Assembly (NCBI GenBank): GCA_013265495.1
Contig: MU057951.1
Coordinates: 93,118 to 157,117, forward strand
Source: Vicugna vicugna
Lineage: Eukaryota
Length of the DNA: 64,000 nt
Reading direction: 5' to 3'
Below, piece after piece: positions 2,136-64,000 of this stretch (positions within the stretch are counted from its first letter, which is position 1; the number at the start of each line of letters is the position of its first letter). A model generated the notes under the pieces. The model saw only the letters and a list, made by a program, of their open reading frames with translations. It was not told the DNA's origin and did not search any database. A program made the translations under genes and the position numbers.

Positions 2136-2145
2136 GTATCTTCAT

Positions 2146-3250: not shown

Positions 3251-3269
3251 ATATGTTGAGGAGTAACAT

Positions 3270-4930: not shown

Positions 4931-4934
4931 ACAT

Positions 4935-6650: not shown

Positions 6651-6980
6651 CTTTTTTTTTTTTACTTTTTCAAATTTATTTTTAATTGAAGTATACTCAG
6701 TTACAAAGTGTCAATTTCTGGTGTATAACATAATGTCCAATTCATGCATGTATATGTATATTCATTTTCATATTGTTTTTTATTAAAGGTTATTACAAGA
6801 TGTTGAATATAGTTCCCTGTGCTATACAGAAATTTTTATCTATTTCTATAACTAGTGGTTAACATTTGCAAATCTCAAACTCCCAAATTTATCCCTTTCC
6901 ACTCCCTTTTCCTCAGTAACCATTAATTTATTTATTATGTCTGCAAGTCTGTTTCTGTTTTGTAGATGAGTTCATTAGAG
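6651..6980 (-). mobile_element. Short L1 3'UTR insertion with poly(A) tail (poly-T on +)
   Basis: T-run followed by ttgaagtatactcagttacaaagtgtcaatttctggtgta. Same subfamily 3' end as 7046-7360. Confidence 0.8.
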
Positions 6981-7045
6981 TTAAAGGTATACTTTTGAAT
7001 TCTCTGCAGCTATTCCATTACAACATTAGGAATTTGATAGCCATC

Positions 7046-11460: not shown

Positions 11461-11566
11461 AAAATTTGGAACCTTTCATGAAGAAATCTGTTATACTTTC
11501 ACAGGGGCCTTGCTAAACTTCTCTGCATCATTCCAGTTTTAGTATATGTGCTGCCAAAGAAAGAAT
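11461..11566 (-). pseudogene. RNU6 (pseudogene): Full-length U6 snRNA retropseudogene
   Basis: Minus strand reads ATTCTTTCTTTGGCAGCACATATACTAAAACTGGAATGATGCAGAGAAGTTTAGCAAGGCCCCTGTG...GTTCCAAATTTT. Ungapped 106-nt manual alignment to vertebrate U6 as I recall it gives about 24 mismatches (~77%). The ACAGAGA box is mutated to GCAGAGA. Confidence 0.93.
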
Positions 11567-16395: not shown

Positions 16396-16465
16396 CACAT
16401 TTATTTTTCATTTACATGTATGTACTATTCATTGTATCTAAGAATGTTAAAAGCTTCACTTTTTT

Positions 16466-16543
16466 ATATTTTTATTGATTTATAATCATTTTACAATGTT
16501 CTGTCAAATTCCAGTGTACAGCACAATTTTTCAGTCATACATG

Positions 16544-16637
<94 letters not shown>

Positions 16638-19600
16638 TTGTCACATTTTTTTCTCTGTGAGCTACCATGAGATCTTGTATATATTTCCCTGTGATATACA
16701 GTATAATCTTGTTTATCTATTCTACAATATTGAAATCCTGTCTATCCCTTCCCTCCCTCCACCCCCTTGGTAACTGCAAGTTTGTATTCTATGTCTATGA
16801 ATCTGTTTCTGTTATGTATTTATGCTTTGTTTGTTTTTGTTTTTGTTTTTTTAGATGCCACATATGAGCGATCTCATACGGTATTTTTCTTTCTCTTTAT
16901 GGCTTACTTCACTTAGAATGACATTCACAGAAGCATCCATGTTGATGCAAATGGCATTATGTTGTCGGGTTTTATGGCTGAGTAGTATTTCAATCTAAAT
17001 ATACCATTTCATCTTTATCCAGTTATCCATTGATGGATATTTAGGCTGTTTCCATGTCTTGGCTATTGTAAATAGTGCTGCTATGAACATTGGGATGCAG
17101 GTGTCATCCTGAAGTAGGGTTCCTTCTGGATATATGCCAAGGACTGGGATTCCTGGGTCATATGGGAAGTCTATTCCTAGTCTTTTGAGGAATCTCCATA
17201 CTGTTTTCCACAGTGGCTGCACCAAACTGCATTCCCGCCAGCAGTGTAGGAGGGTTCCCCTTTCTCCACAGCCTCTCCAGCATTTGACATTTGTGGATTT
17301 TTGAATGATGGCCATTCTGACTGGTGTGAGGTGATAGCTCATTGTAGTTTTGATTTGCATTTCTCTGATAATTAGTGATATGGAGCAGTTTTTCATGTGT
17401 CTATTGATCATTTGTAAGTCTTCCTTGGAGAATTGCTTGTTTAGGTCTTCTGCCCATTTTTGGATTGGGTTGTTTGTTTTTCCTTATTAAGTCATATGTG
17501 CTGTTTATATATTCTGGAGATCAAGCCTTTGTCTGTTTCATTTGCAAAAATTTTCTCCCAATCCATAGGTTGTCTTTTTGTTTTACTTCTGGTTTCCTTT
17601 GCTGTGCAGAAACTTGTAAGTTTCATTAGGTCCCATTTGTTTATTCTTGCTTTTATTTCTATTGCTTCAGTGGACTGTTCTAGGAGAACATTTTTGAGAT
17701 GTATTTCAGATAATGTTTGGCCTATATTTTCTTCTGGGATGTTTACTGTCTCTTGTCTTCTGTTTACGTCTTTGATCCATTTTGAGTTGATTTTTGTGTA
17801 TGGTGTAAAGGAGTGTTCTAGCTTCACTGATTTACATGCTGCTGTCCAGTTTTCCCAACACCATTTGCTGAAGAGACTGTCTTTATTCCATTGTATATTC
17901 TTGCCTCCATTGTCAAAGATGAGTTGACCAAAAGTTTGTGGGTTAATGTCTGGGCTCTCTATTCTATTCCATTGGTCTATATGTCTGTTTTTGCACCAAT
18001 ACCATGCTGTCTTGATGAATGTGGCTCTATAGTATTTTCTGAAAACTGGAAGAGATATTCCTCCAGCCTCTTTCTTTCTCTTCAGTAATGCTTTGACAAT
18101 TCTTGGTCTTTGATGGTTCCATATAAATTTTAATATAATTTATTTTAGTTCTGTGAAATATGTCCTGGCTAGTTTCATAGGGATTGCATTATATCTGTAG
18201 ATTGTCTTGGGCAGTGTGATCATTTTAACAATATTGATTCTTCCAATCCAAGAGCATGGAATATCATTCCATTTTTTAAATTCTTCTTTCATTTCCTTCA
18301 TCAAAGGTTTATAGTTTTCTGTGTATAATTCTTTCACCTTCTTGGTTAGATTTATTCTGAGGTATTTTATTTCTTCGGGTGTTATTTTAAAGGGGATTTT
18401 TCTTTACTTTCTTATCTGTTGATTCATCATTAGTGTAAAGAAATACAACTGATTTTTGAACGTTAATCTTGTAATCTGCTGCCTTGCTGAATTCTTTGAT
18501 CAGCTCTAGCAGTTTTTCTGTAGACCTTTTAGGATTTTGAATATATAGTAACATGTCGTCGGCATATAGTGACACTTTTACCTATTCTTTTCCAACTTGG
18601 ATGCCTTTTATTTCTCTTGCTTGAATGCTGTGGCTAGGACTTCCAAAACGATGTTGAGTTGGAGTGGTGATAGAGGGCATCCTTGTCTTGTCCCAGATTT
18701 TAGTAGGAAAGTTTTCAGTCTTCCACCATTGAGTAATATGCTGGCTGTAGGTTTGTCATATATAGCTTTTATGTTGAGATATACTCCCTCTGTACCCACT
18801 TTGGTGAGAGTTTTTATCATAAATGGGAGTTGAATTTTATCAAATGCTTTTTCTGCATCTATTGTGAGAATCATGTGGTTTTTGTCCCTTGTCTTGTTGA
18901 CGTGATATATTACATTTATTGATTTGTGTATGTTGAACCACCCTTGTGTCAAGGGACACCCTTGTGTCCCTGAACCCCTCTTGGTCATGGTGTATTTTTA
19001 TGTGTTGTTGGATTCTATTTGCTAATATTTTGTTGAGGATTTTGGCGTCTATGTTCAAGAGTGATTTTGGCCTATAATTCTCTTTTTTGGTAGTGTCTTT
19101 GCCTGGTTTTGGTATCAGGGTGATGGTGGCTTCATAGAATGAGTTTGGGAGTATTCCCTCCTTTTCAATCTTCTGGAAGAGTTTGAGAAGGACTGGTATG
19201 AGTTCTTCTTTGTATGTTTGATAGAATTCCCTGGTGAAGCCGTCTGGTCCTGGACTTTTATTTGTAGGGAGGTTTTTAATTGCTATTTTGATTTCATTTC
19301 TAGTTATCACTTTGTTCAATTGGTCAGTTTCTTCTTGATTCAGTCTTGGTGGACTGTATGTTTCCAGAAATTGTCCATCTCCTCTAGGTTATCCAATTTG
19401 GTTCCATATAGTTTTTCATACTATTCTCATATGATATTCTGTATTTCTGTTTTATTTGTTGTAATTGCTCCATTTTCCATTTTTATTATGCTAATTTGTG
19501 CTCTGTCTTTTTCTTCTTTCTGAGTTTGGCCAGAAATTTGTCGCTTTTATTTACTTTTTCAAAAAAACAGCCTTTGCCTACATTGATTTTTTTCTAGTTT

Positions 19601-22180
19601 ATTTTTAATCTGTATTTGAATTATTTCCTCCCAGATCTTAATAATTTCCTTTCTTCTGCTGCCTTTTGGGAATTTTTGTTCTTTTTCCAGTTCATTCAGG
19701 TGGTGGGTTAAATTGTTTGTCTGAGATTGTTCTTCTTTTTTGAGGAAGGCCTGTATCGCTATAAACTTCCCTCTTAGCACTGCCTTTGCTGTGTCCCATA
19801 GATTTTGAGTGGTTGTGCTTTCATTTTCATTTGTCTCAAGGTATTTTATAATTTCAACTTTGATTTCCTCATTGACCCATTGGTTATTTAATAGCATGTT
19901 GTTTAATCTCCATGCTTTCCCTTTTTTCTCCTTCCTTTCTCTGTTGTTGATTTCTGGTTTCATGGCATTGTCATCAGTAAAGATGCTTGATGTAATTTCA
20001 TCTTCTTAAATTTGTTGAGGTTTCTTTTGTGCCCAAGTACATGATCAATCCTAGAAAATGTTCCATGTGGACTTGAAGAGAATGTATATCCTACTTTTTG
20101 GAAGTGTAATACTCTGAATATAGTCACCAAATCTAATTGTTCTGTTGTATTATTTAGTTTCTCTGTTGCCTATTTTACTTTATGTCTGGAAGATCTGTCT
20201 AGTGATGTTAATGCAGTATTAAATCTCCAACAATGATTGTATTCCCATCAATATCCCCCTTTAACTCTGTTAGTAATTGTTTTAGGTATTTAGGTGCTCT
20301 GATATTGGGTGTATATATATTAATGAGTGTAATATCCTCATCTTGTATCACTCTTTTAATCATTATAAAATGTCCTTCTTTAACTTTCTTTATGGCCTTT
20401 GTTTTAAAGTCTACTTTGTCTGAAATCAGTACTGCAACACCTGCTTCATTGGCTTTTCCATTTGCATGGAATATCCTTTTCCATCCTTTCACTCTCAATC
20501 TATATGTGTCCTTCTCCCTAAAGTGGGTCTCTTGTATGCAGCATATTGAAGGCTCTTGCTTTTTTATCCAGTCTGCCATTGTATGTCTTTTGATTGGAGC
20601 ATTTAGTCCATTAACATTTACCATCATTGATGATAGATGTGTGTTTATTGCCATTTTGAACTTGTGTTTGCAGTTGATTTTGTATTTCCTCTTTGTCCCT
20701 TTCTTCTTCCTTTTGTGGTTTGGTAATTTTCCTTTGTATTATCATGGATTTCTTTTAGTTTTTGTGACTTTCTTGTAAGTTTTTGGCTTTTGCTTACCCT
20801 TTTCGGTATGTCTATTAGCCCATTACAATATCTTGAACCCATTCTGCCATGAAGAAAAAAATTAAAAAAGAAAAAGAAAAAAATACTCTTTATTTTCTTG
20901 CTTCCCTCTCCCACTCTTAATGATTTAGACGTCTTCATTAACAATTTCGTGTTTATTTTGTTTGTAATTCATGAGCTATCACCTTTCCAGTTCTTGTTTT
21001 CTCATTTCTGTAGCATCCTGCTGCTTTTCTGCTCAGATAAGACCTTAGACCTTTCAATATTCCTTTTAGCATGGATTTAGTGTTGGTAAACTCTTTTAGT
21101 TTTTACTTGTCTGTGAAATTCTTTATCTCTCCTTCTATTCTAAAGGATAGCCTTGCTGGAACGAGTATCCTAGGCTACATCTTTTTTTCATTCAGGACTT
21201 TGAATATATCTTGCCACTCACTTCTGGCCTGTAGTGTTTGTGTAGAGAAATCAGCTGAGAGCCTTATGGGGGTCCCCTTGTAACTCACTATTTTCTTTTC
21301 TCTTGCTGCCTTTAGGATCATTTCTTTATCCTTGTTTCTGGCCATCTTGATTATGATATGTCTTTGTGTGGGTCTGTTTGGGTTCTTCCTGTTTGGGACC
21401 CTTTAATCTTCCTGTATTGGATATCTGATTCCTTCTTTAAGTTTAGGAAGTTTTCAGTCATGATTTCTTCAAAAGCCTTTTCAATCCCGTTTGATCTTTC
21501 TTCCCCTTTGGGACCCCTATTATGCAAAAATTGGTATGCCTTATATTATCCTATAGGTCCCTTATGTTGCTTTCATTTGTTTCCATTTGTTTATCTTGCA
21601 GTTGTTCTGATTATGTGCTTTCTGTTGTCCTGTCTCCTAGGTCACTAATTCATTCCTCTGCATTATCTATTCTTCTTTGCACAGCCTTTATATCTGTTCT
21701 TTTCTCAGCCAATGTGTTTACCAATTCTACTTGGCTCTTCTTTATAGCTTCGATTTCATTTTTGACATAAACACTATGTCTTTTTGTTCCTTTAATTCTT
21801 TGATCACTCCTTTTTTGAAATCTTAGTCAAGTAAGCTATTGATGTCTATTTCATTAATCATTCTTTCAGGGGATTTCTCATTTTAATTGGGAATGGTTTC
21901 TCTGCTTCTTCATCTTGCTCATATCTCTCTGGCATTGTGGCTTATGGGGTACCAGTTATCTATTATGGTCATTAAAGAGTTCATTTATTTATCTATCTAA
22001 TGCCTATGTAGGAATAAAACAGATTTTTGGCATTTTTGTCTTTTGAAGAGGACAGTGTTCTGTCGGAGTTCTGTAGGTGCTCTGGTTGGCTGAGTGGGTC
22101 TTCGGATGTGAGTCTTGGTGTATCTGTGGCAGAGGGAGAGCCACGAGTGTCCTATACTCCACCATCTCAGCCTTGTTCTT
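16466..22180 (-). mobile_element. End-to-end L1 with a spliced 5'UTR (SpIRE-type); ORF1 and ORF2 disrupted
   Basis: 5' terminus GAGATGGTGGAGTATAGGACAC near 22170, ORF1 start near 21922, ORF2 start 20654 ([15 protein letters not shown]), YADD fragment 18387..18575, 3'UTR. Flanking repeat AGCTTCAC(C)TTTTT at 16452-16465 and 22183-22196. Confidence 0.92.
16547..16633. repeat. Perfect (AT)n microsatellite in an L1 3'UTR
   Basis: About 43 uninterrupted AT units. Confidence 0.97.
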
Positions 22181-22269
22181 AGAGCTTCACCTTTTTAAAC
22201 TTACATAGATATCAAAGAAATAAAACCAACCACAAAATTAGAATTAACTCAAAAACTTACATTCACCTT

Positions 22270-22759: not shown

Positions 22760-25700
22760 CTCTTTTTTTTCTTTCTTTCTTGGTTTTGTTCTTTTTTCTT
22801 TTTTTAACATTTTTATTGATTTATAATCATTTTACAATGTTGTGTAAAATTCCAGTCTTCAGCACAATTTTTCAGTCATTCATGGACATATACACATTCA
22901 TTGTCACATTTTTTTTCTCTGTGAGTTATCATAACATTTTGTATATATTTCTCTGTGCTATACAGTGTAATCTTGTTTATCTATTCTACAATTTTGAAAT
23001 CCCAGTCTATCCCTAACCACCCTCACCCCCATGGTAACCACAAGTCTGTATTCTCTGTCTGTGAGTCTATTTCTGTACTGTATTTATGCTTTGCTTTTGT
23101 TTGTTTGTTTGATTTTGTTTTTGTTTTTTAGATTCCACATATGAGCGATCTCATATGGTATTTTTCTTTCTCTTTCTGGCTTACTTCACTTAGAATGACA
23201 TTCTCCAGGAGCATCCATATTGCTGCAAATGGCATTATGTTGTCGGTTTTTATGGCTGAGTAGTATTCCATTCTATATATATACCACTTCTTTCTCCAGT
23301 CACCTTTTGAGGGACATTTAGGCTGTTTCCATGTCTTGGCTATTGTAAATAGTGCTGCTATGGATATTGGGATGCAGGTGTCATCCTGAAGTAGGGTTCC
23401 TTCTGGATACAAGCCCAGGAGTGGGATTCCTGGGTCAAATGTTAAGTCTATTCCTAGTCTTTTGAGGAATCTTCACACTGTTTTCCACAGTGGCTGCACC
23501 AAACTGCATTCCCACCAGCAATTTGGGAGGGTTCCCCTTTCTCCACAGCCTCTCCAACATTTGTCATCTGTGGATTTTTGAATGGCCATTCTGACTGGTG
23601 TGAGGTGATAGCTCACTGTAGTTTTGATTTGCATTTCTCTGATAATTAGTGATATGGAGCATTTTTTCATGTGCTTATTGATCATTTGTATGTCTTCCTT
23701 GGAGAATTGCTTGTTTAGATATTTTGCTCATTTTTGGATTAGGTTGTTTGGTTGTTTCTTATTCAGTTGTAGGATCTGCTTATATATTCTGGAGATCAAG
23801 CCTTTGTCGGTTTCACTTGCANNNNNNNNNNNNNNNNNNNNNNNNNNNNNNNNNNNNNNNNNNNNNNNNNNNNNNNNNNNNNNNNNNNNNNNNNNNNNNN
23901 NNNNNNNNNNNNNNNNNNNNNNNNNNNNNNNNNNNNNNNNNNNNNNNNNNNNNNNNNNNNNNNNNNNNNNNNNNNNNNNNNNNNNNNNNNNNNNNNNNNN
24001 NNNNNNNNNNNNNNNNNNNNNNNNNNNNNNNNNNNNNNNNNNNNNNNNNNNNNNNNNNNNNNNNNNNNNNNNNNNNNNNNNNNNNNNNNNNNNNNNNNNN
24101 NNNNNNNNNNNNNNNNNNNNNNNNNNNNNNNNGTCTTTGATGGTTCCATATAAATTTTATTATGATTTGTTCTAGTTCTGTGAAATATGTCCTGGGTAAT
24201 TGGATAGGGATTGCATTAAATCTGTAGATTGCCTTGGGCAGTGTGACCATTTTAACAATATTGATTCTTCCAATCCAAGAGCTTGGGATATCTTTCCATT
24301 TTTTAAAGTCTTCTTTAATTTCCTTCATCAATGGTTTATAGTTTTCTGTGTATAATTCTTTCACCTCCTTGGTTAGATATATTCCTAGATATTTTATTAC
24401 TTTGGGTGCTATTTCAAAGGGGATTGTTTCTTTACTTTCTTTTTCTGTTGATTCATCATTAGTGTAAAGAAATGCAACTGATTTTTGAACGTTAATTTTG
24501 TAACCTGCTACCTTGTTGAATTCTTCAATCAGCTCTAGTATCTTTTGTGTGGACCTTTTAGGGTTTTCTCTATATAGTAACATGTGATCAGCATATAATG
24601 ACACTTTTACTTCTTCTTTTCCAATTTCGATCCCTTTTGTTTCTTTCTCTTGCCCGACTGCTGTGGCTAGGACTTCCAAGTCTATGTTCAATAGGTCCAA
24701 GTGGTGACACTGGACAGTCTTGTCCCACATTTTAGCGGCAAGGTTTTCAGCTTTTCTCCATTGGGTACTATGCTGGTTGTAGGTTTGTCATAAATAGCTT
24801 TTATTATGTTGAGATATGTTCCCTTTATACCCACCTTTCTGAAGGTTTTTATCAGAAATGGTGTTGAATTTTATTAAATGCTTTTTCTTCATCTATTGAG
24901 ATGACCATGTGATTTGTGTTCTTTCTCTTGTTGTTGTGGTTTATTACATTGATTGATTTGCATATGTTGAACCATGCTTGTATTCCTGGGCTGAATCCAA
25001 CTTGATCCTGGTTTATGATCTTTTTTATGTGCTATTCAATTCTGTTTGTTAATATTTTGTTGAGGATTTTTGCATATATGTTCAACAGTAATATTGGTCT
25101 GTAATTCTCTTTTTTGATAGTGTCTTTGTCTGGTTTTTGTATCAGGGTGATGGTGGCTTCACAGAATGAGTTTGGGAATAGTCCCTCCTTTTCAATCTTC
25201 TGGAAGAATTCAAGAAGGACTGGTATGAATTCTTCTTTGTATGTTTGTTTGAATTCCCCAGTGAAGCCATCCAGCCCTTGACTTGTGTTTGTAGGAATGT
25301 ATTTTATTGCTATTCTTTTTCATTTCTAGTGATTGGTGTTTTCAAGTGGTCTGTCTCTTCTTGATTCTGTTTGTGTGGACTCTATGTTTCCAGAAACTTA
25401 CCAGTTTCTTCTAGGTTATCTGGTTTGTTTCCAGAGTTGTTCATTGTATTCTTAAATGATCTTTTGTATTTTTCTGGTATTGATTGTAATTTCTCCATTT
25501 TCCTTTCTTATTTTTTTATTTGTGCTCTCTCTTTTTTCTTCTTCATGAGCTTGGCCAGAGGTTTGTTAATTTTGTTTGCGCTTTCAAAAAAACAGCTCTT
25601 GGTTTGATTAATTTTTAGTTGTATTTTTTTAAATCTATAGTTTATGTATTTCCTCCCTGATTATTATTTTCTTCCTTCTGCTGATTTTCGGTTCTGTTTG

Positions 25701-27569: not shown

Positions 27570-27867
27570 CAATGAAGTATAGTTGATGTACAGTATTACA
27601 TAAGTTTCAGGTGTACAAAATAGTGATTCACAATGTTTAAAGGTTATATTCCATATATAGTTATTACAAAATACTGAACATATTCCTTGAGTTGTACAAT
27701 GCATCCTGGTTGCTTATTCATTTTACACTCAGTAGACTGTACCAATTAAACCTCTATGTCTGTCTTGCCCTCCTTCCTTCTCCCCACTGGTAATGACTAG
27801 TTTGTTCTCTGTATATGTGAGTCTGCTCCTTTTTTGTTACATTCACTTTATAAAAAAACTTTTTGGA
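27570..27867 (-). mobile_element. Older L1 3' end that is the target of the intact L1; continues at 35066-35190
   Basis: gaagtatagttgatgtacagtattacataagtttcaggtgtacaaaatagtgattcaca. It resumes after the insertion as ttacgcatat...ttatttcacttagaatac. Confidence 0.75.
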
Positions 27868-29636
27868 ATTCCGGGCAAGATGGCGGAGTAGAAGGACGCT
27901 TGCAAGTCACACTCTCCCACAAATACACCAAGACCCACATCTACAGACCCACTCAGACAACCAGAGCACCTGCGGAACTCTGAAAGAACATCGCCCTCTT
28001 CAAAAGATAAAGACGCCAAAAATCTGGTAGGAGAAAAGGAAAAAGAAAGAACAAAAGGCAAAGCAGCGTGGGACGGGTCCCGCGGGGAGGGAGCGGCAAA
28101 GGAGGACTGGCGCTCGCTCGCTGGGTCTCCCCTCTCCAACTGAGAGGCCAGCGGGAAGGAGGGGGAGCCTCCGAGGCTCGGATCTGTACAGAGCAGCCCT
28201 TGTCTGACAGAACTAAGTTAAACGGGCACAGAGCGTCCCCCCGACACCCAGCCTGAGANNNNNNNNNNNNNNNNNNNNNNNNNNNNNNNNNNNNNNNNNN
28301 NNNNNNNNNNNNNNNNNNNNNNNNNNNNNNNNNNNNNNNNNNNNNNNNNNNNNNNNNNNNNNNNNNNNNNNNNNNNNNNNNNNNNNNNNNNNNNNNNNNN
28401 NNNNNNNNNNNNNNNNNNNNNNNNNNNNNAAAGTTGATGTCGGGGGAAGGGTGCATAACCCCATCTCTGAAAACCCGCGGAAACTTTTCAGGGGAAGAGG
28501 GGCGGGGCCGAGGCAGAGCCGCCATATTCTCTGGCGCTTAGCACCCAGGCGGGGGCAGAGACAAAACCTGCGTCCGCACTGAAGGGCTTTGCAGCCTCAA
28601 GGGCCAGACTGAGACAGGCCTACAGCCCTGGGCAGATAAGATCCTTGCATTTTGGTCCCCCAGAGAACTTGCTCCACAAAGACAAACAAGCAGCTGGGTC
28701 TTGGCTCCGAGCAGGGAGGAGGCTGCCCCTCGGTCTTCCCCGAGCCCACCCGCGGAGCGCGACCAGGGCGGAGCGCCGATCAGGGCGGAGCGCGACCAGG
28801 GGGGAGCGCCGGCGCAGAACGCAAAGCCGCACAGAGCAGCGGAGCTACCGGCGGCGCAGGCAGGGGGAGAGCGGCCCCCCGCCTGTCGGGCAGGAACACA
28901 ACCCCTGACCGAGGTGCTGGGAAGGGACACGACCCGCCCTCCTGCCTGGCCAGTCTGCAACATCTGACTGCGGCATACGGAGGGGCAGTGACCCGCCAGC
29001 CCGCAGCAGAAGAGAGCTGCATCTGACCCCGGGTTAGGAGGAGGCGCGATCTGCTTGCCAACAGGTGCTGGGAGCAGCACAGAAGAACCTATGAAAATGA
29101 GCTTCCAAAACAGGACGAAGACAGAAGGACATCACAATAAAAGCACACACACTCCAGGAGAACACCGACAACCCCTTTTTTGTTTTGTTTAGTTTTTTTT
29201 GTTTGTTTTGTTTTTTTGTTTTTGTTTTTGTTTTTTTATCTGTTTTTACCTGTTCTATTTTCTATTACTCTCTTAATTTTTACTTTTTAATTCATTTCTA
29301 TTTCTCTTGGGTTTTGATGTCCTGTTATTGATTAGACACAGGCTTCAAACACATATATTCATCTCCCCACCCACTTTTTTTTAAAGGTTTTAAAAGGACG
29401 TCCCCACCCGATTAATACTCTGCTTCAACCCGCTATTCTATTATTCATTATACACTGTTTTCAAAGCCTCTTTCTCCCTTTTTTTAAAAATCTTTCTCTC
29501 TCTCTTATATTTTTCTCTTTTTTTCTTTTTTCTTTTTTTTTCCTAAGTTCTATTCCTAAATAGGCATTAGATAGATAAAATCCTTAAGATCCAAAATAGA
29601 CAACTGATACTCCATAAGCCACAGTGCCAGAGAGGT
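27868..29636 (+). promoter_or_regulatory. L1 5'UTR internal Pol II promoter (CpG-rich, 5' YY1 motif, GC boxes)
   Basis: CAAGATGGCGG YY1-type motif at 27876-27886, multiple GGGCGG, many retained CpGs up to about 29080. N-gap 28259-28429. Confidence 0.85.
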
Positions 29637-30539
29637 ATGAGCAAGATGAAGAAGCAGAGAAACCTTTCCCAATTAAAAGAACAAGAGAAATCCCCTGAAA
29701 GAAAGATCAATGAAATAGACATCGATAGCCTACTATATCAAGATTTCAAAAAAGGAGTGATCAATTTGCTGAAGGAATTAAAAGAGATAATGCTTAGAGA
29801 AATAAAATATGTCAAAAATGAAATTGAAGCTATAAAGAAGAGCCAAGCAAAATGGGAAAACTCATTGACAGAGATGAGGAATGATCTAAAAGCGGTGCAA
29901 AGCCGACTAGTTAATGCAGAGGAACGAATTAGTGATCTAGAAGACAGGGCAACAGAAAGCACCCATTCAGAAGAACTACAAGATAAGCAAATAAAAAATA
30001 ATGATAATAGCATAAGGGACCTATGGGATAATATAAAGCATCCCAATCTTCGCATAATAGGGGTCCCAGAAGGGGAAGAAGGATCAAAGGGGATTGAAAA
30101 GGTTTTTGAAGAAATCATGACTGAAAACTTCCCAAACTTAAAGAAGGAATCAGATATCCAAGTACAGGAAGCTCAGAGGGTCCCAAACAGGAAGAACCCA
30201 AATAGACCCACACCAAGACATATCATAATCAAGATGGCCAGAGTCAAGGATAAAGAAATGATTCTAAAGGCAGCAAGAGAAAAGCAAAGAGTGAACTACA
30301 AGGGAACCCCCATAAGGCTCTCAGCTGATTTCTCTACACAAACACTACAGGCCAGAAGGGAGTGGCAAGATATATTCAAAGCCCTGAATGAAAAAAAGAT
30401 GCAGCCTAGGATACTTTATCCAGCAAGGCTATCCTTTAGGATAGAAGGAGAAATAAAGAGTTTCACAGACAAAAAAAAGCTGCAGGAGTTTAGCAACACT
30501 AAACCCATGCTAAAAGAAATATTGAAAGGGCTATTCTAA
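29637..30539 (+). CDS. L1 ORF1p, RNA-binding nucleic-acid chaperone, 300 aa
   Basis: Coiled coil (LVNAEERISDLED), RRM (NLRIIGVPEGEE, ENFPNL, PRHIIIK), C-terminal motifs REKQ, QARREW, YPARLSF. Confidence 0.97.
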   Translation: MSKMKKQRNLSQLKEQEKSPERKINEIDIDSLLYQDFKKGVINLLKELKEIMLREIKYVKNEIEAIKKSQAKWENSLTEMRNDLKAVQSRLVNAEERISDLEDRATESTHSEELQDKQIKNNDNSIRDLWDNIKHPNLRIIGVPEGEEGSKGIEKVFEEIMTENFPNLKKESDIQVQEAQRVPNRKNPNRPTPRHIIIKMARVKDKEMILKAAREKQRVNYKGTPIRLSADFSTQTLQARREWQDIFKALNEKKMQPRILYPARLSFRIEGEIKSFTDKKKLQEFSNTKPMLKEILKGLF

Positions 30540-30936
30540 ATAGAAAAGCAGCAGGATGCTACAGAAATGAGAAACGTACAACTGGAAAGGTGATAACTCA
30601 TGAATTACAAATAAAGAAAACACGAAATTATAAAAGAAGACATACAAATCACTGAGAGTGGGAGAGGGAGGCAGGGAAATATAGAATTTTTTTTCTTTCT
30701 TTTTTAAATTTTTTTAACAGTAGGATGGGTTTGAGATCATGTTATTATCAGTTTATTAAAAACGGGTATAGGTTAATAGATTTACAAAAAAGGGTAACCA
30801 CAAGTCAAAAATTTACAAGGGAGTCACAAAAATTAAATAAAATCCATGATAATACAAAGGAAAATTACCAAACCACAAAAGGAAGAAGAAAGGAACAAAG
30901 AGGATATACCAATTCAACTGCAAAGATAAGTTCAAA

Positions 30937-33900
30937 ATGGCAATAAACACACATCTATCATTAATTACTGTAAATGTTAATGGACTAAATGCTCCAGTCA
31001 AAAGACATAGAGTGGCAGACTGGATAATAAAGCAAGAACCTTCAATATGCTGCATACAAGAGACCCACTTTAGGGAGAAGGACACATATAGATTGAGAGT
31101 GAAAGGATGGAAAAGGATATTCCATGCAAATGGAAAAGCCAAAAAAGCAGGTGTTGCAGTACTGATTTCAGACAAAATAGACTTTAAAACAAAGGCCATA
31201 AAGAAAGATAAAGAAGGACATTTTATAATGATTAAAGGAGTGATACAAGATGAAGATATTACACTCGTTAATATATATGCACCCAATATAGGAGCACCTA
31301 AGTACATACAAGAATTACTAACAGAGATAAAGGGGGATATTGATGGGAATACAATCATAGTTGGAGATTTTAACACTGCATTAACATCACTAGACAGATC
31401 TTCCAGACAGAAAATAAACAAGGCAACAGAGAAATTAAATACTACAATAGAAAAACTAGATTTGGTGGATATTTTCAGAGCTTTACACCCCCAAAAAATA
31501 GAATATACATTCTTTTCAAGTGCACATGGAACATTTTCCAGGATCGATCATGTACTTGGACACAAAAGAAACCTCAACAAATTTAAGAAGATAGAAATTA
31601 TCTCAAGCATCTTTACTGACCACAATGCCATGAAACTGGAAATCAACAACAGAGAAACAAAGGAGAAAAAAAGAAAAGCATGGAGATTAAACAATATGTT
31701 ATTGAAAAAACAATGGATCAATGAGGAAATCAAAGCTGAAATTAAAAAATACCTTGAGACAAATGATAATGAAAGCACAACCACTCAAAACCTATGGGAC
31801 ACAGCAAAGGCAGTGCTAAGAGGGAAGTTTATAGCGATACAGGCCTTCCTCAAAAAAGAAGAACAATCTCAAATAAACAAGTTAACCCACCACCTGAATC
31901 AATTAGAAAAAGAAGAACAAAAAGCCCCAAAAAGCAGCAGAAGGAAGGAAATAATAAAGATCAGAGAGGAATTAAATACAATAGAGATTAACAAGACCAT
32001 AGAAAAAATCAACCAAACCAAAAGCTGGTTTTTTGAAAAAGTAAATAAAATCGACAAACCTCTGGCCAAACTCACAAAGAAGAAAAAAGAGAGAGCACAA
32101 ATTAGCAAAATAAGAAAGGAAAATGGAGAAATTACAACAAACAAAATAGAAATACAGAATATCATACGAGAATATTATGAAAAACTATATGGAACCAAAC
32201 TGGATAACCTAGAGGAGATGGACAAGTTTCTGGAAACATACTGTCCACCAAAACTGAATCAAGAAGAAACTGAACACTTGAACAATCCGATCACTAGAAA
32301 GGAAATAGAAATAGCAATTAAAAACCTCCCTACAAATAAAAGTCCAGGACCGGATGGCTTCACCGGGGAATTCTACCAAACATACAAAGAAGAACTCATA
32401 CCAGTCCTTCTCAAACTCTTCCAGACGATTGAAAAGGAGGGAATACTCCCAAACTCATTCTATGAAGCCACCATCACCCTGATACCAAAACCAGGCAAAG
32501 ACACTACAAAAAAAGAGAATTATAGGCCAATATCACTGATGAACATAGACGCCAAAATCCTCACCAAAATTTTAGCAAATAGAATCCAACAACACATAAA
32601 AAAGATTATACATCATGACCAAGTGGGGTTCATCCCAGGGACACAAGGCTGGTTCAACATACGCAAATCAATCAATGTAATACATCACATCAACAAGAGA
32701 AAGGACAAAAACCACATGATCATCTCAATCGATGCAGAAAAAGCATTTGATAAAATTCAACACCCATTTATGATAAAAACTCTCGCCAAAGTGGGTATAG
32801 AGGGAACATATCTCAACATAATAAAAGCTATATATGACAAACCTACAGCCAGCATAGTTCTCAACGGTGAAAAACTCAAAAGCTTCCCACTAAAATCTGG
32901 GACAAGACAAGGATGCCCACTATCACCACTCCTATTCAACATAGTCCTGGAAGTCCTAGCCACAGCAATCAGGCAAGAGAAAGAAATAAAAGGGATCCAA
33001 ATTGGAAAAGAAGAGGTAAAAGTGTCATTATATGCTGACGACATGTTACTATATATAGAAAACCCTAAAAGGTCCACAAAAAAGCTACTAGAGCTGATCG
33101 AAGAATTCAGCAAGGTAGCAGGTTACAAAATTAATGTTCAAAAATCAGTTGCCTTTCTTTACACTAACGATAAATCAACAGAAAAAGAAAGTAAAGAAAC
33201 AATCCCCTTTAAAATAGCACCCAAAGTAATAAAATATCTGGGAATAAATCTAACCAAGGAGGTGAAAGAATTATACACAGAAAACTATAAACCATTGATG
33301 AAGGAAATTAAAGAAGACTTTAAAAAATGGAAAGATATTCCATGCTCTTGGATTGGAAGAATCAATATTGTTAAAATGGTCACACTGCCCAAGGCAATCT
33401 ACAGATTTAATGCAATCCCTATCCAATTACCCAGGACATATTTCACAGAACTAGAACAAATCATAATAAAATTTATATGGAACCATCAAAGACCTAGAAT
33501 TGCTAAAGCATTACTGAAGAGAAAGAAAGAGGCTGGAGGAATAACTCTCCCAGACTTCAGACAATACTATAGAGCTACAGTCATCAAGACAGCATGGTAT
33601 TGGTACCAAAACAGACATATAGACCAATGGAACAGAATAGAGAGCCCAGAAATGAACCCACAAACTTTTGGTCAACTCATCTTCGACAAAGGAGGCAAGA
33701 ATATACAATGGAATAAAGACAGTCTCTTCAGCAAATGGTGTTGGGAAAACTGGACAGCAGCATGTAAAACAATGAAGCTAGAACACACCCTTACACCATA
33801 TACAAAAATCAACTCAAAATGGATTAAAGACTTAAACATAAGACAAGATACAATAAACCTCCTAGAGGAAAACATAGGCAAAACATTATCTGACATACAT

Positions 33901-34734
33901 TTCAAAAATTTTCTCCTAGAAGAAATAAAAGCAAGAATAAACAAATGGGACCTAATGAAACTTACAAGCTTCTGCAGAGCAAAGGAAACCAGAAATAAAA
34001 CAAGAAGAAAACCTACGGAATGGGAGAAAATTTTTGCAAGTGAAACCGACAAAGGCTTGATCTCCAAAATATATAAGCAGCTCATACGACTCAATAAGAA
34101 AAAAATAAACAACCCAATCCAAAAATGGGCAGAAGACCTAAACAAGCAATTCTCCAAGGAAGACATACAAATGATCAAAAAGCACATGAAAAAATGTTCA
34201 ATATCACTAATTATCAGAGAAATGCAAATCAAAACTACAATGAGGTATCACCTCACACCAGTCAGAATGGCCGTCATTCAAAAATCCAAAAATGACAAAT
34301 GCTGGAGAGGCTGTGGAGAAAGGGGAACCCTCCTACACTGCTGGTGGGAATGCAGTTTGGTGCAGCCACTATGGAAAACAGTGTGGAGATTCCTCAAAAG
34401 ACTAGGAATAGACTTACCATATGACCCAGGAATCCCACTCCTGGGCTTGTACCCAGAAGGAAATCTACTTCAGGATGACACCTGCACCCCAATGTTCATA
34501 GCAGCACTATTTACAATAGCCAAAACATGGAAACAGCCTAAATGTCCATCAACAGGTGACTGGATAAAGAAGATGTGGTATATTTATACAATGGAATACT
34601 ACTCAGCCATAAAAACCGACAACATAATGCCATTTGCAGCAACATGGATGCTCCTAGAGAATGTCATTCTAAGTGAAGTAAGCCAGAAAGAGAAAGAAAA
34701 ATACCATATGAGATCGCTCATATGTGGAATCTAA
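30937..34734 (+). CDS. L1 ORF2p, APE endonuclease plus reverse transcriptase plus Cys-rich C-terminus, 1265 aa
   Basis: [31 protein letters not shown]-like [41 protein letters not shown]-terminal CWRGC..HCWWEC. No internal stops. Confidence 0.98.
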
Positions 34735-35347
34735 AAAACAAAAACAAACAAACAAACAAAAACAAAGCATAAATACAGGACAGAAATAGACTCATGGACA
34801 GAGAATACAGACTTGTGGTTACCAGGGGGGTAGAGGGTGGGAAGGGATAGACTGGGATTTCAAAATTGTAGAATAGATAAACAAGATTACACTGTATAGC
34901 ACAGGGAAATATACACAAAATGTTATGATAAATCACAGAGAAAAAAATGTGACAATGAGTGTGTATATGTCCATGAATGACTGAAAAATTGTGCTGAACA
35001 CTGGAATTTGACACAACACTGTAAAATGATTATGAATCAATAAAATATGTAAAAAAAATTTTGGATTACGCATATTACTTTATTGTATTTGTTAAATTAC
35101 ACATATATATGACATTATGAAATTTTTGTCTTTCTCTTACTTATTTCACTTAGAATACCCTCCATGTCCATCCATGTTGTTGCAAATGTTTGGCATCTGT
35201 TTTGTTTTGGTTTTTTTCTTTTTGTTTTTTCTTTTTGTAGTGGGTTTTACTGGCTTTTTTATCAAATTTATGTTGGTTTCATAAAATCATTTTGGAAATG
35301 TTCCATCTTGCTTAATTTTTGGAAGAGTCTGAGATGAATTCTATTAA

Positions 35348-59584: not shown

Positions 59585-61958
59585 GGGAAGAGAAGCAAGA
59601 TGGCAGAGTAGAAGGACACTTATAGCTCACCCTCTCCCACAAATACACCAAAACTCACATCTACGGACCCACTTAGCCAACCAGAGCACCTTTGGAACTC
59701 CGACAGAACATTGCCCTCTTTGAAAGATGAAGATGCCAAAAACCTGGTAGGAGAAAAGGAAAAAGAAAGAAGAAAAAGCAAAACAGTGCAGGATCGGCCC
59801 TGTGGGGAGGGAGTGGCAAAGAAGGTATAGTGCTTGTTCACTGGGTCTCCTCCCTTCAATGGAGAGGCCAACAGGATGGAGGGGGAGCCTCCGAGGCTCA
59901 GATCTGCCCCAAGCACCCCTTGACTGACAGAACTAAGTTAAGTAGGCACAAAGGTTCCCTGCGACACCCAGCCCGAGATGCAAGCCGGCAGCTGGGGGCT
60001 GGGGCAGGCTGCCTGAGCTGGGCAGAGGACTGGAGCGGCTGCATTGAGGCAGCCCCAGGGGACTACAGGGTACTGCATGCCATGGCTGGGAGGTGATAAA
60101 GAGCAGAACAACATCGGTCTTCGATAAATTGTGAAAATAGCAAAGCAACACGGCTGATGTGCCCTGGGGGGAGGGGCACCATAGCCTTTGTCTCCTCAGA
60201 CCCGAGGTGCCATTACTGGAGCTTCTAGCGAGTAGAGAGGTGGGGCCTAGCCACAGCCGCCATATCCTCCTGTGCAAAGTGCCTGGGTGGGGGCAGGGCC
60301 AAGACCTGTATCTGTATGGGGCAGAGGGACTCCTCAACCTCCTAGGCAAGACTGAGACATGTTTACAGCCCGAGGCTGAAAGAATCTTTCTGCCCTGGCA
60401 CCTCAGAGAACTCACACCGCCAAGACAAACAAGGAGCTGAGATTTCACACAGAGCAGGGGCGGGGCTGTTCCTGCAGTCTTCCCTGAGCCTGCCTAAGGA
60501 GCACCTACCTGAAGCAGAGCAGGCAGCTGCACAGAGCAGCAGAGCAACTGATGCCAGGAGAGGGCGGCAGCCACCTGCCTTCCTGGCAGGAATGCAGCAC
60601 CTGACCATGGTGCTGGTAGGGGGCATGATCCGCCCACCTGCCTCGCCCTAGCACAACATCTGAATGCGACACCGGGAGGGGGAGTGACCCACTCGCCCAC
60701 CTATGCCAGAGAGATATGAGCAATATGTAGAAGCAGAGGAACCACTCCCAAATAAAAGATCAATAGAAATCCCCTGAAAGCACAATCAAGGAAATAGACA
60801 TTGATGGCCTACTAGATCAAGATTTCACAAAAGGACTAATCAAAGTACTGAAAGAACTAAAATAAATAGTGTTTAGAGATATAAAATATGTCAAAAATGA
60901 AATAGAAGCTCTTAAAAAGAACCAACTAGAATTAGTAAACTCATTTGTTGAGATGAGAGCTGATCTAAAGGCTGTGCAAAGCAGAGTAGATAATGCAGAG
61001 GAACAAATAAGTTACCAGGAAGACAGGACTACAGGAAGCACCCAATCAGAACAACTGAGAGAAAAAAAAATAAAAAACAATGAAAGCAATATAAGGGACA
61101 TATGGGCTAAGATAAATCATGCCAATCTACACATAATAGGGGTTTCAGAAGGGGAAGAAAAAACTAAAGGGCTTCAAAAGGTATTTGAAGAAATCATGAC
61201 TGAAAACTTCCCAAACCTAAAAGAAGGAATCAAATATCCAAGTACAGGAGGCTCAGAGGGTCCCAAACAGGAAGAACCCAAACAGACCCACACCAAGACA
61301 TATCATAATCAAGATGGCCAGAGTCAAGGATAAAGAAATGATCCTAAAGCATTTAGCAACACTAAACCCATACTAAAAGAAATATTGACAGGTCTACTCT
61401 AAATAGAAAAGAAGCAGGACGCTACAAAAATGAAAAACTCATAACTGAAAAGGTGATAACTACCATGAATTACAAATACAATAAACACAAAATTGTAAAA
61501 GAAGGCATCTAAATCATTAAGAGTGGGAGAGGAAAGCAAGGAAAGCCACTGTGGAAAACAGTATGGAGAGTCCTTAAAAGGCTAGGAATAGTCTTACCAT
61601 ATGACCCAGGAATCCCACTCCTGGGCATATATCCAGAAGGAAGCCTACTTCAAAATGACACATACACCCCAATGTTCATAGCAGCACTATTTACAATAGC
61701 CAAGACATGGAAACAGCCTGTGCCCATCAACAGATGACTGGATAAAGAAGATGCGGTGTATTTTTAGAGTGGAATACTATTCAGCCATGAAAACTGACAA
61801 CATAAAACCATTTGAAGCAACACGGATGTTCCTGGAGGGTGTCATTATAGGTGAAGTGAGCCAGAAAGGGAAAGAGAAGTCCTGTGTGAGATCTCTTATA
61901 TGTGCAATCTAAAAAAAACAAAACAAACAACAACAACAACAAAACATAAATACAGATC
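59585..61958 (+). mobile_element. L1 of an older sister subfamily with three internal deletions (5'UTR, ORF1, nearly all of ORF2)
   Basis: 5' GCAAGATGGCAGAGTAGAAGGACAC. ORF1 start at 60716 has an early TAG. Junctions near 60703, 61350 and 61544 when compared with the intact copy. Confidence 0.88.
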
Positions 61959-64000
61959 ATTCCGGGCAAGATGGCGGAGTAGAAGGACGCTTGTAAGTCA
62001 CCCTCTCCCACAAATAAACCAAGACCCACATCTACAGACCCACTCAGACAACCAGAGCACCTGCGGAACTCCAACAGATCATCGCCCTCTTCAAAAGATA
62101 AAGACGCCAAAAATCTGGTAGGAGAAAAGGAAAAAAGAAAGAACAAAAGGCAAAGCAGCGTGGGACGGGTCCCGCGAGGAGGGAGCGGCAAAGGAGGACT
62201 GGCGCTTGCTCGCTGGGTCTCCCCTCTCCAATTGAGAGGCCAGCGGGACGGAGGGGGAGCCTCCAAGGCTCGGATCTGTACAGAGCAGCCCTTCTCTGAC
62301 AGAACTAAGTTAAACAGGTACAGAGCGTACCCCCGACACCCAGTCTGAGACGCGGGCCGGCAGCGGCGGGCAGGGCCAGGCTGCACAAGCCGGGTGGAGG
62401 ACGGGGGCGGCTGCACGGAGACAGCTCCAGGGGACTGCAAGGGGCTGGGGGCCGGGGCTGTGGGTGTACAGGACAGAACAACCTGGGCCCTCCATAAAAC
62501 AGCAAGGTTGATGTGCTCTCGGGGGAAGGGTGCATAACCCCATCTCTGAAAACCCACGGAAACTTTTCAGGGGAAGAGGGGCGGGGCCCAGGCAGAGCCG
62601 CCATATTCTCCGGCGCTTAGAACCCAGGCGGGGGCAGAGGCGAAACCTGCATCCGCACCGAAGGGCTTAGCAGCCTCAAGGGACAGACTGAGACGGGCCT
62701 ACAGCCCTCGGCAGATAGGATCCTTCCATTCTGGTCCCCCAGAGAACTTGGTCCACAAAGACAAACAAGCAGCTGGGTCTTGGCTCGGAGCAGGGATGAG
62801 GCTGCCCCTTGGTCTTCCCCAAGCCCACCCGCGGAGTGCGACCAGGGCGGAGCGCCGACCAGGGCGGAGCGCGACCAGGGCGGAGCGCCGACCAGGGCGG
62901 AGCGCCCGCGCAGAGCGCAAAGCCGAACAGAGCAGCGGAGCTACCGGTGGCGCAGGCAGGGGCAGAGCGGCCGCCCGCCTGTCAGGCAGGAACACAACCC
63001 CTGACCGAGGTGCTGGGAGGGGGCACGACCCGCCCTCCTGCCTGGCCAGTCTGCAACATCTGACTGCGGCATACGGAGGGGCAGTGACCCGCCCACCCGC
63101 AGCAGAAGACAGCTGCATCTGACCCCGGGTTAGGAGGAGGCGCGATCTGCTTGCCAACAGGTGCTGGGAGCAGCACAGAAGAGGGCGCCAACGGAGGGCC
63201 TATGAAAACAAGCTGAGCTTCCAAAACAGGACGAAGACAGAAGGACATCACAATAAAAGCACACACACTCCAGGAGAACACCGACAACCCCCTTTTTTTG
63301 TTTGTTTTTTTTTTGTTTTGTTTTTTTGTTTTTTTGTTTTTTGTTTTTGTTTTTGTTGTTTTTTATAATCTGTTTTTACCTGTTCTATTTTCAATTACTC
63401 TCTTAATTTTTACTTCTTAATTCATTTTTATTTCTCTTGGGTTTTGATGTCCTGTTATTGATTAGACACAGGCTTCAAACACATATATTCATCTCCCCAC
63501 CCCCCCTTTTTTTTTAAAGGTTTTAAAAGGACGTCTCCACCCGATTAATACTCTGCTTCAACCCGCTCTTCTATTATTCATTATACATTGTTTTCAAACC
63601 CTCTGTCTCCCTTCTTTTAAAAATCTTTCTCTCTCTTTCTTATTTTTTTCTCTTTTTTTATTTCTTTTTTATTTTTTTCTAAGTTTATTCCTAAATAAGC
63701 ATTAGATAGATAATATCCTTAAGATCCAAAATAGACAACTGATACTCCATAAACCACAGTGCCAGAGAGGTATGAGCAAGATGAAGAAGCAGAGAAACCT
63801 TTCCCAATTAAAAGAACAAGAGGAATCCCCTGAAAGAAAGATCAANNNNNNNNNNNNNNNNNNNNNNNNNNNNNNNNNNNNNNNNNNNNNNNNNNNNNNN
63901 NNNNNNNNNNNNNNNNNNNNNNNNNNNNNNAAATATGTCAGAAATTGAAGCTATAAAGAAGAGCCAAGCAAAATGGGAAAACTCATTGACAGAGATGAGG
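61959..64000 (+). mobile_element. 5' end of a second young L1 (complete 5'UTR, ORF1 start at 63772); runs off the window
   Basis: Near-identical to 27868-29880. ATGAGCAAGATGAAGAAGCAG at 63772. N-gap 63846-63930. Confidence 0.95.

What the first reader, a model, noticed from the sequence alone, without database searches (positions are those of the whole stretch)
21900..22180. Retrotransposed spliced L1 RNA: about 1.5 kb removed from the 5'UTR exactly at GT..AG (SpIRE-like)
Seen: on the minus strand this L1 reads ...GCCAAAAATCTG|TTTTATTCCTACATAGGCATTAGATAG... (junction 22020/22019). In the unspliced young copies the left side is followed by a donor, AATCTG|GTAGGA (GT at 28027 and 62118; also 59747). 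The right side is preceded by a long pyrimidine tract and AG, TTTTTTCCTAAG|TTCTATTCC (AG at 29546-47; 63682-83). The missing piece equals a canonical intron (62118-63683 = 1566 nt in the gap-free copy) holding most of the CpG-rich promoter. The element keeps both termini and a TSD-like repeat. Established: spliced integrated retrotransposed elements (SpIREs) with intra-5'UTR introns are described for primate L1s and have crippled promoters. Inference: a different, non-primate L1 5'UTR has its own usable intron, and the spliced RNA was mobilised in the germline.
Basis: partly seen in the sequence, partly recalled or inferred. Interest (0 to 1): 0.8.

Follow-up and report, generated by a model that had tools for sequence, protein, structure and literature searches.

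The report
Retrotransposed spliced L1 copies (SpIREs)
This L1 jumping-gene copy was made from an RNA whose leader had been spliced, and the same splice scar recurs at dozens of other places in this genome, so the phenomenon known from human L1 also happens in this unrelated L1 leader.

Summary
Window 22182..16466 (-) is a full-length L1 flanked by a 14-nt target-site duplication (13 of 14 alike). It lacks about 1.5 kb of 5'UTR exactly where unspliced copies read CTG|GT...(90% pyrimidine)...AAG|TT.

It is not a one-off. The junction 23-mer occurs at 43 places in the 2.03-Gb assembly (reversed control 0). All 30 loci I fetched have different 5' flanks and complete 5' ends.

Unspliced elements with the same subfamily markers exist and outnumber the spliced ones. 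The same exon-1 36-mer is followed by the intron at 177 places and by exon 2 at 28. A tree test rejects a single origin of the spliced state (AU p 0.0019).

A second junction uses the same donor with another acceptor (CCCCCAG|AG, 625 nt skipped). It occurs at 19-20 places, almost all in the youngest subfamily.

The best reading is recurrent splicing of L1 RNA followed by retrotransposition, as in human SpIREs. New points are an L1 whose leader is built differently from the human one, an older subfamily with a spliced share of about 14-22% (human about 2%), and a change of acceptor between subfamilies.

RNA evidence could not be obtained, and promoter loss is inferred. This is a new member of a known kind, of moderate interest.

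The parts
16466..22182 (-). The spliced L1 copy (class A SpIRE). It runs from the 5' end to a short A-rich tail and is about 88% identical to the neighbouring young copy. Its ORFs are broken.
   Evidence: blastn against the young copy: query 19-167 maps to 22167-22020, and query 1688-7109 maps to 22020-16625 at 88.3%. The longest minus-strand ORF is 159 aa.
22020..22182 (-). Exon 1: the first ~160 nt of the L1 5'UTR, including the AAGATGG-type box at the very 5' end. It ends ...AAAAATCTG.
22019..22020 (-). Splice junction CTG|TTTT (donor side 22020, acceptor side 22019).
   Evidence: The same 23-mer is at 43 genome places.
21923..22019 (-). Exon 2: the remainder of the 5'UTR, up to the ORF1 start codon at 21922-21920.
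   Evidence: In the young copy the ORF1 ATG lies 88-89 nt after the acceptor.
22183..22196 (-). 5' copy of the target-site duplication, AAAAAGGTGAAGCT.
16452..16465 (-). 3' copy of the target-site duplication, AAAAAAGTGAAGCT (13 of 14 alike).
27866..35060 (+). Young unspliced full-length L1 used as reference. The donor is CTG|GT at 28026/28027, acceptor A1 is CAG|AG at 28663/28664, and acceptor A2 is AAG|TT at 29547/29548. ORF1 is 29637-30539 and ORF2 is 30937-34734, both open.
62118..63683 (+). The intron of class A in the gap-free young copy (1566 nt, GT..AG). Class B removes only 62118-62742.
59595..61544 (+). Older unspliced L1 5' part with the same donor (CCTG|GTAGGA at 59746/59747).

Best explanation
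The L1 of this genome has a 1.8-kb 5'UTR that contains a working splice donor about 159 nt from its 5' end (CTG|GTAGGA). It also contains at least two acceptors. A1 lies about 625 nt further on (CCCCCAG|AG). A2 lies about 1.4-2.2 kb further on, behind a long pyrimidine tract, and 88 nt before the ORF1 start (AAG|TT).

Some L1 transcripts were spliced within the leader in cells of the germ line. This leaves both ORFs intact, so the spliced RNA could be reverse-transcribed into new sites by the L1 machinery. The result is full-length-looking copies with target-site duplications that lack the CpG-rich middle of the leader.

The window copy is one of at least 43 such donor-A2 copies. They arose repeatedly from successive older subfamilies. 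The youngest subfamily instead left about 20 donor-A1 copies.

Shown: the junctions, their number and independence, the presence of unspliced parents with the same markers, more than one origin, and intact ORF1 geometry. Inferred: that the deletion happened in RNA by the spliceosome, that it happened in the germ line, and that the copies have weak promoters.
For: 1. The junction lies exactly at GT..AG of the unspliced copies, with 90% pyrimidines before the acceptor. The chance of GT..AG for a random deletion is about 0.005.

2. The junction 23-mer (up to 2 mismatches) is at 43 places in the genome, with reversed control 0. All 30 of 30 fetched loci have different 5' flanks and complete 5' ends. 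The window copy has a TSD.

3. Unspliced parents of the same subfamily exist.
- TAAG plus the subfamily's exon-2 40-mer gave 232 places, 23 of them exact.
- The subfamily's exon-1 36-mer is followed by GTAGGA at 177 places and by TTTTAT at 28 (up to 3 mismatches). With up to 2 mismatches the counts are 63 and 18.
- Donor and acceptor hits pair up on the same strand 1.4-2.2 kb apart at 10 loci.

4. No marker is private to the spliced copies.
- The one candidate (GTATTG about 230 nt after the junction) has 32 exact places. Of these, 6 are spliced, at least 14 unspliced and 12 undetermined (cross-referenced).
- Of the 17 best exact or near-exact exon-1 5' 45-mers, 3 are spliced, 11 unspliced and 3 undetermined.

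5. On a tree of the 1 kb after the junction (66 rows), the spliced state needs 7 changes, at least 3 of them forced by well-supported branches. The AU test rejects the spliced copies as one side of a branch (28 against 21 rows, lnL difference 73, p 0.0019).

6. A second junction uses the same donor and another AG, and skips 625 nt.
- It was first seen as a joint in contigs of run X15.
- It is at 19 places in the genome.
- L085 shows one with a young-type exon 1 and a full 5' end.
- 19 of 20 carry the young-type marker.

7. Human SpIREs have the same architecture: one common donor, several acceptors, intra-5'UTR, and ORFs kept (PMC5860796, sections 7 and 17 read).
Against: - No RNA evidence was obtained. 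The two raw-read RNA runs laid no read at all. The RNA-run contigs (X2) showed no donor-A2 or donor-A1 joint. The tool skipped the repeat zone 63623-63681 right before A2, and the 93% likeness threshold shuts out the old subfamilies. This was no test rather than a negative.
- The acceptor A2 is AAG, which I recall to be the less common form of the YAG consensus. The donor matches the recalled consensus MAG|GTRAGT at 6 of 9 places. No splice-site scoring program was available.
- TSDs were checked for the window copy only. The 3' ends of the other loci were not fetched.
- The youngest subfamily has the same donor and an A2 site with a long pyrimidine tract, yet it has 0 donor-A2 copies against 1038 unspliced donors. 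I cannot explain this.
- All genome counts are lower bounds by the tool's own statement.
Confidence: 0.87

Rival explanations
1. A DNA-level deletion happened once in one element, by chance at GT..AG. That short element then acted as a master and amplified into the 43 or more copies.
For: The spliced copies cluster on the tree more than shuffled labels do (7 changes against a mean of 19.6). Most of them (25 of 30) carry one subfamily's markers. Their share in that subfamily is high, 18 of 81 or 28 of 205. Three weakly supported pairs of spliced copies appear (SH-aLRT 84-88).
Against: The AU test rejects one origin (p 0.0019). The spliced copies sit at several rungs of the subfamily ladder next to unspliced copies. 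No private marker was found, since the one candidate is shared with at least 14 unspliced copies. A second deletion class starts at the very same donor base and also ends at AG. The chance of GT..AG is about 0.005 for each class.
Confidence: 0.05
2. The short leader is the ancestral state, and the 1.5-kb segment was inserted into the 5'UTR later. On this reading the window copy is simply an old subfamily member.
For: The short copies belong to older subfamilies and none is of the youngest type. I recall that L1 lineages are known to replace or acquire 5'UTR sequence over time.
Against: Unspliced copies exist that carry the same oldest markers on both sides of the segment. The bipartition short versus long is rejected. 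An inserted segment would have to begin with GT and end with a pyrimidine tract plus AG by chance. Short copies also occur with later-subfamily markers (L008, L019, L022, L023, L025).
Confidence: 0.03
3. Splicing made the first short copies, but some of them kept enough promoter to be transcribed and to retrotranspose again. The high share in the older subfamily is then partly their own progeny.
For: The share is about 14-22% in that subfamily, against about 2% in human and about 1.9% for class B here (PMC5860796 section 7). Exon 1 keeps the 5'-terminal AAGATGGCGG box, which I recall matches the YY1 site type. Weak pairs of spliced copies appear in the tree.
Against: No marker private to the spliced copies was found in exon 1 or in the 1 kb after the junction. 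The copies lose 76 of 82 CpGs of the leader. The human precedent is that such copies are dead ends (PMC5860796 section 17).
Confidence: 0.2

Closest known systems
Human intra-5'UTR SpIREs (SpIRE97/622, SpIRE97/790; Larson et al. 2018, PMC5860796; earlier Belancio et al., cited there)
   Same: These are L1 copies with retrotransposition hallmarks that lack a leader segment bounded by GT..AG. They use one common donor with several acceptors. The ORFs are left intact. They are found in several successive subfamilies, and acceptor use changes as the 5'UTR evolves. Class B here has about the human share (about 1.9% against about 2%).
   Different: - The leader here is 1.8 kb, against a human leader with donor at 98/99 and acceptors at 620-975. 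The donor here is at about 159 and the acceptors at about 784 and about 1725.
- The intron removed in class A is 1.4-2.2 kb, against 0.5-0.9 kb in human.
- The share in one older subfamily is about 14-22%, against at most 3.4% in any human subfamily (section 7).
- There is no RNA, reporter or retrotransposition assay here.
Human 5'UTR/ORF1 SpIREs (SpIRE97/976)
   Same: They use the same donor logic and are retrotransposed spliced RNA.
   Different: Those splice into ORF1 and truncate ORF1p. Here both acceptors lie upstream of the ORF1 start (88 nt for A2), so no coding sequence is lost.
Processed pseudogenes and U6/L1 chimeras (other L1-mediated retrocopies)
   Same: They are made by the same L1 reverse-transcription machinery and have TSDs. 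The window itself holds a U6-like sequence fused to a truncated L1.
   Different: Those copy cellular RNAs or arise by template switching. Here the template is L1's own spliced mRNA.

Membership tests
SpIRE (spliced integrated retrotransposed element) | L1 copy with an internal gap whose borders coincide with GT and AG of the unspliced element. | tested here: met
   There are two possible registers because of 1 nt of overlap, and one of them gives GT..AG.
SpIRE (spliced integrated retrotransposed element) | Hallmarks of retrotransposition: target-site duplication, A-rich tail, independent genomic sites. | tested here: met
   The window copy has a TSD with 13 of 14 alike and a short A-rich tail. 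All 30 of 30 junction loci have different 5' flanks. TSDs of the other 29 were not examined.
SpIRE (spliced integrated retrotransposed element) | The contemporaneous unspliced subfamily contains the removed segment. | tested here: met
   Paired donor and acceptor hits lie 1.4-2.2 kb apart at 10 loci. The M2-type introns in L091-L098 are 1334-1459 nt long. One of them, L094, was compared with the young intron and is homologous to it.
SpIRE (spliced integrated retrotransposed element) | Recurrent origin rather than one deleted master. | tested here: met
   AU test p 0.0019. At least 3 changes are forced on the tree. No private marker was found.
SpIRE (spliced integrated retrotransposed element) | Common donor used with more than one acceptor. 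| tested here: met
   The donor-A1 junction is at 19-20 places. One example was read in L085.
SpIRE (spliced integrated retrotransposed element) | The spliced isoform is seen in RNA. | tested here: inconclusive
   In one search, 2 raw-read RNA runs laid 0 reads, and the contigs of one RNA run showed no such joint. The repeat zone before A2 was skipped by the tool.
SpIRE (spliced integrated retrotransposed element) | Reduced promoter activity of the spliced leader. | not testable with these tools
   The only indirect evidence is that 76 of 82 CpGs of the leader lie in the removed piece.
LINE-1 | ORF1p of the Transposase_22 type and a long ORF2, with 5'UTR, 3'UTR and A-tail. | tested here: met
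   The young neighbour has a 300-aa ORF1 whose nearest Atlas clusters are L1 ORF1p (score 0.97, PF02994 in 100% of members). It also has an open 1265-aa ORF2. ORF2 was not scanned against a family library.

The most novel reading that the evidence does not exclude
In one older subfamily of this L1, about one full-length insertion in five came from leader-spliced RNA, roughly ten times the human figure. The lineage then lost use of that acceptor entirely (0 copies against 1038 unspliced young donors) while keeping the donor. This would mean that leader splicing was a major drain on L1 or, alternatively, that a short leader keeping only the first 159 nt was still a usable promoter. In the second case these copies were not dead ends but a competing short-leader lineage.
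Probability: 0.25. Interest if true: 0.6.

Novelty: new member of a known kind. Interest (0 to 1): 0.45.

Why it matters
SpIREs have been worked out in human L1. Two full-text searches and the passages I read showed no report of them outside primates. Subscription-only papers are not covered by that library.

The same outcome in a leader with a different layout points to a general cost of carrying a long, GC-rich internal promoter in a Pol II transcript. That outcome is one donor, several acceptors, and acceptor choice that shifts as the leader evolves. It is not a quirk of the primate sequence.

For annotation, about 60 or more elements in this assembly that look full-length lack most of their leader. 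They should not be counted as potential source elements.

The contrast between subfamilies gives a natural experiment for what controls splice-site use in L1 RNA. The figures are about 14-22%, about 1.9% and 0.

Tried and rejected
- **More unspliced copies of the parental subfamily for the tree:** Only 8 M2-type and 4 S-type copies were obtained with smaller requests. The linkage of markers to junction state was therefore worked out from the coordinates of pattern hits.
- **RNA evidence:** one search found mostly small-share runs. In one search the two raw-read RNA runs (X22, X23) laid nothing and the X2 contigs showed no relevant joint. I treat this as no test.
- **Candidate marker private to the spliced copies (GTATTG):** not private.
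- **Possible cause of the acceptor switch:** I looked for gain of the A1 AG in the young subfamily. The A1 motif is already present in the 9 M2-type copies checked, so this does not explain the switch.
- **Host taxon:** the Atlas gave only 'Chordata'. Rfam at gathering threshold found only a U6-like hit, and ARAGORN found no tRNA-like SINE. 'Non-primate' therefore stays untested.
- **Earlier findings of this scan:** none for these words or this place.
- **Splice-site scoring:** MaxEntScan and SpliceAI were not available, so only consensus matching by eye was done.

Full report
**Observation**

On the minus strand the window reads ...GCCAAAAATCTG|TTTTATTCCTACATAGG... with the join at 22020/22019.

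In three other L1 copies of the window the left side runs on into GTAGGA, at 28027, 62118 and 59747. In two of them the right side is preceded by a long pyrimidine tract and AAG, with AG at 29546-47 and 63682-83. In the gap-free copy the missing piece is 62118-63683, which is 1566 nt.

One G fits on both sides of the join. The break therefore has two possible registers, and one of them is GT..AG. From the dinucleotide content of this leader, a random deletion would be GT..AG in either register about 5 times in 1000. The 60 nt before the acceptor are 90% pyrimidine, against 48% for the region.

blastn against the neighbouring young copy shows the element is otherwise colinear. Query 19-167 maps to 22167-22020 and query 1688-7109 maps to 22020-16625, at 88% identity. 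There is an (AT)n expansion in the 3'UTR.

The element has a complete 5' end and a 14-nt target-site duplication, at 22196-22183 and 16465-16452, with 13 of 14 alike. Its reading frames are broken.

**How often the junction occurs**

The junction 23-mer, with up to 2 mismatches, is found at 43 places in the window's own assembly (2.03 Gb). The reversed control gave 0. The tool states that such counts are lower bounds.

All 30 loci that were fetched, one of them the window itself, have different upstream flanks and a complete L1 5' end. They are therefore separate insertions and not duplications of one locus.

**Was the intron present in the parents?**

The copies fall into subfamilies that can be told apart by short markers on both sides of the join.
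- Most spliced copies (25 of 30) are of a type I call S.
- About five (L008, L019, L022, L023, L025) resemble a later type, M2.
- None is of the youngest type.

Unspliced S-type elements exist.
- TAAG followed by the S-type exon-2 40-mer is found at 232 places with up to 3 mismatches, 23 of them exact.
- The S-type exon-1 36-mer is followed by the intron start at 177 places and by exon 2 at 28 (up to 3 mismatches). With up to 2 mismatches the counts are 63 and 18.
- At ten loci a donor hit and an acceptor hit lie on the same strand 1.4-2.2 kb apart.
- In eight M2-type copies fetched whole the intron is 1334-1459 nt. The one I compared (L094) is homologous to the young intron along its length.

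**One origin or many?**

I built a maximum-likelihood tree of the first kilobase after the join. It held 66 rows: 30 spliced copies, 4 S-type unspliced, 11 M2-type unspliced and 21 others. Six loci had been left out for gaps or short length.

The tree is the ladder typical of L1, running from S through M2 to a young group with many identical rows. The spliced copies sit on several rungs next to unspliced ones. The spliced state needs 7 changes, at least 3 of them forced by well-supported branches.

I then dropped three long-branch rows and thinned the near-identical young rows to six. The AU test rejects the best tree that keeps the 28 spliced copies on one side of a branch (lnL lower by 73, p 0.0019). 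This speaks against a single deleted master. It speaks equally against a single later insertion of the segment.

I also looked for markers private to the spliced copies. One site seemed so: GTATTG about 230 nt after the join, in 21 of 23 spliced S-type copies and in 0 of the 4 unspliced S-type copies. It is not private. Its exact 32-mer occurs at 32 places.
- 6 are known spliced loci.
- At least 14 lie about 222 nt behind an unspliced acceptor or about 2 kb behind an unspliced donor listed.
- 12 could not be placed.

Likewise, of the 17 best matches to the S-type exon-1 5' 45-mer, 3 are spliced, 11 unspliced and 3 undetermined.

**A second junction from the same donor**

I laid contigs of public runs on the young leader. 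One joint appeared from the same donor to an AG 625 nt downstream (CCCCCAG|AG), in run X15, whose kind is not on record.

That junction is present in the assembly at 19 places, 9 of them exact. Locus L085 holds one, with a complete 5' end and young-type markers. With a longer probe, 19 of 20 places carry the young-type marker.

The young-type unspliced donor 44-mer is at 1038 places. This class therefore makes up about 1.9% of young 5' ends. No young-type copy has the long splice.

Two deletion classes that begin at the same base and both end at AG are hard to explain other than by splicing.

**RNA**

This could not be tested. The two raw-read RNA runs laid no read at all. The contigs of one RNA run showed no relevant joint. 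The tool skipped the repeat zone just before the distal acceptor, and the 93% likeness threshold shuts out the old subfamilies.

**What splicing does to the element**

- The long splice leaves a 247-nt leader in place of 1813 nt. It removes 76 of the 82 CpGs.
- It keeps the first 159 nt with the terminal AAGATGGCGG box. I recall that this resembles the YY1 site type, but I did not test that.
- It ends 88 nt before the ORF1 start, so both ORFs are untouched.
- The neighbouring young copy has ORF1 (300 aa, L1 ORF1p by the Atlas) and ORF2 (1265 aa) open.
- Ten sampled loci have identical sequence in the kilobase compared. The family has therefore been active very recently.

**Comparison with what is known**

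Larson et al. 2018 (PMC5860796; abstract and sections 7 and 17 read) describe human SpIREs.
- 131 of 6609 full-length L1PA1-6 copies are SpIREs (about 2%), with at most 3.4% in one subfamily.
- One common donor (98/99) is used with several acceptors.
- Acceptor use changes when the leader changes.
- Promoter activity is reduced, so the copies are mostly dead ends.

The case here has the same architecture in a leader of different length and layout. Class B here matches the human share. Class A in the S subfamily is much higher, at about 14-22%.

Two full-text searches and the passages read showed no report of SpIREs outside primates. The library lacks most subscription journals.

Whether the host is a non-primate could not be tested. 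The Atlas gave only Chordata.

**Verdict**

This is one member of a recurrent class of retrotransposed, leader-spliced L1 copies, with a second class from the same donor.

It is a new member of a known kind. The open points are RNA evidence, promoter activity, the unusually high share in one older subfamily, and why the youngest subfamily stopped using the distal acceptor.

Noticed in passing
window 11460-11566 (-), with L1 at 11410-7078 (-): A U6 snRNA-like sequence (Rfam RF00026, 72.4 bits, full model length) lies about 50 nt 5' of a 5'-truncated L1 body on the same strand. It looks like a U6/L1 chimeric retrocopy, the known kind made by template switching. TSDs were not checked.
   Followed up: partly
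L085 (G000:C3182), junction at locus position 609; window equivalents 62117|62743 and 28026|28664: A second class of spliced L1 copy: same donor, acceptor CCCCCAG|AG, 625 nt removed. It is at 19-20 places in the genome, almost all of the youngest subfamily.
   Followed up: yes
window 27866-35060 (+); loci L071-L089: The young L1 next to the finding has both ORFs open (300 and 1265 aa). Ten sampled loci elsewhere are identical over the kilobase compared. The family was therefore active very recently in this genome.
   Followed up: partly
window 62838-62905 (+) and 28750-28810 (+): Inside the intron there are 3-4 tandem copies of a GC-rich unit of about 17 nt (GACCAGGGCGGAGCGCC-like). Intron length varies from about 1.33 to 2.2 kb between subfamilies and copies. 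Whether unit number explains the length variation was not examined.
   Followed up: no
window 23822-24132, 28259-28429, 63846-63930: There are three runs of N. One lies in the GC-rich leader of the young L1 at 27866 and one just inside ORF1 of the copy at 61960. The assembly therefore seems to break in young L1 copies.
   Followed up: no
window 16551-16625 (-): An (AT)n microsatellite of about 75 nt has expanded inside the 3'UTR of the spliced copy, where the young copy has only a few such letters.
   Followed up: no
genome-wide: The youngest subfamily keeps the donor and a distal acceptor with a long pyrimidine tract. Yet it has no donor-A2 copy against 1038 unspliced donors, while the older S subfamily has about 14-22%. 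The proximal acceptor motif already exists in the older M2 copies, so simple gain or loss of an AG does not explain the switch.
   Followed up: partly
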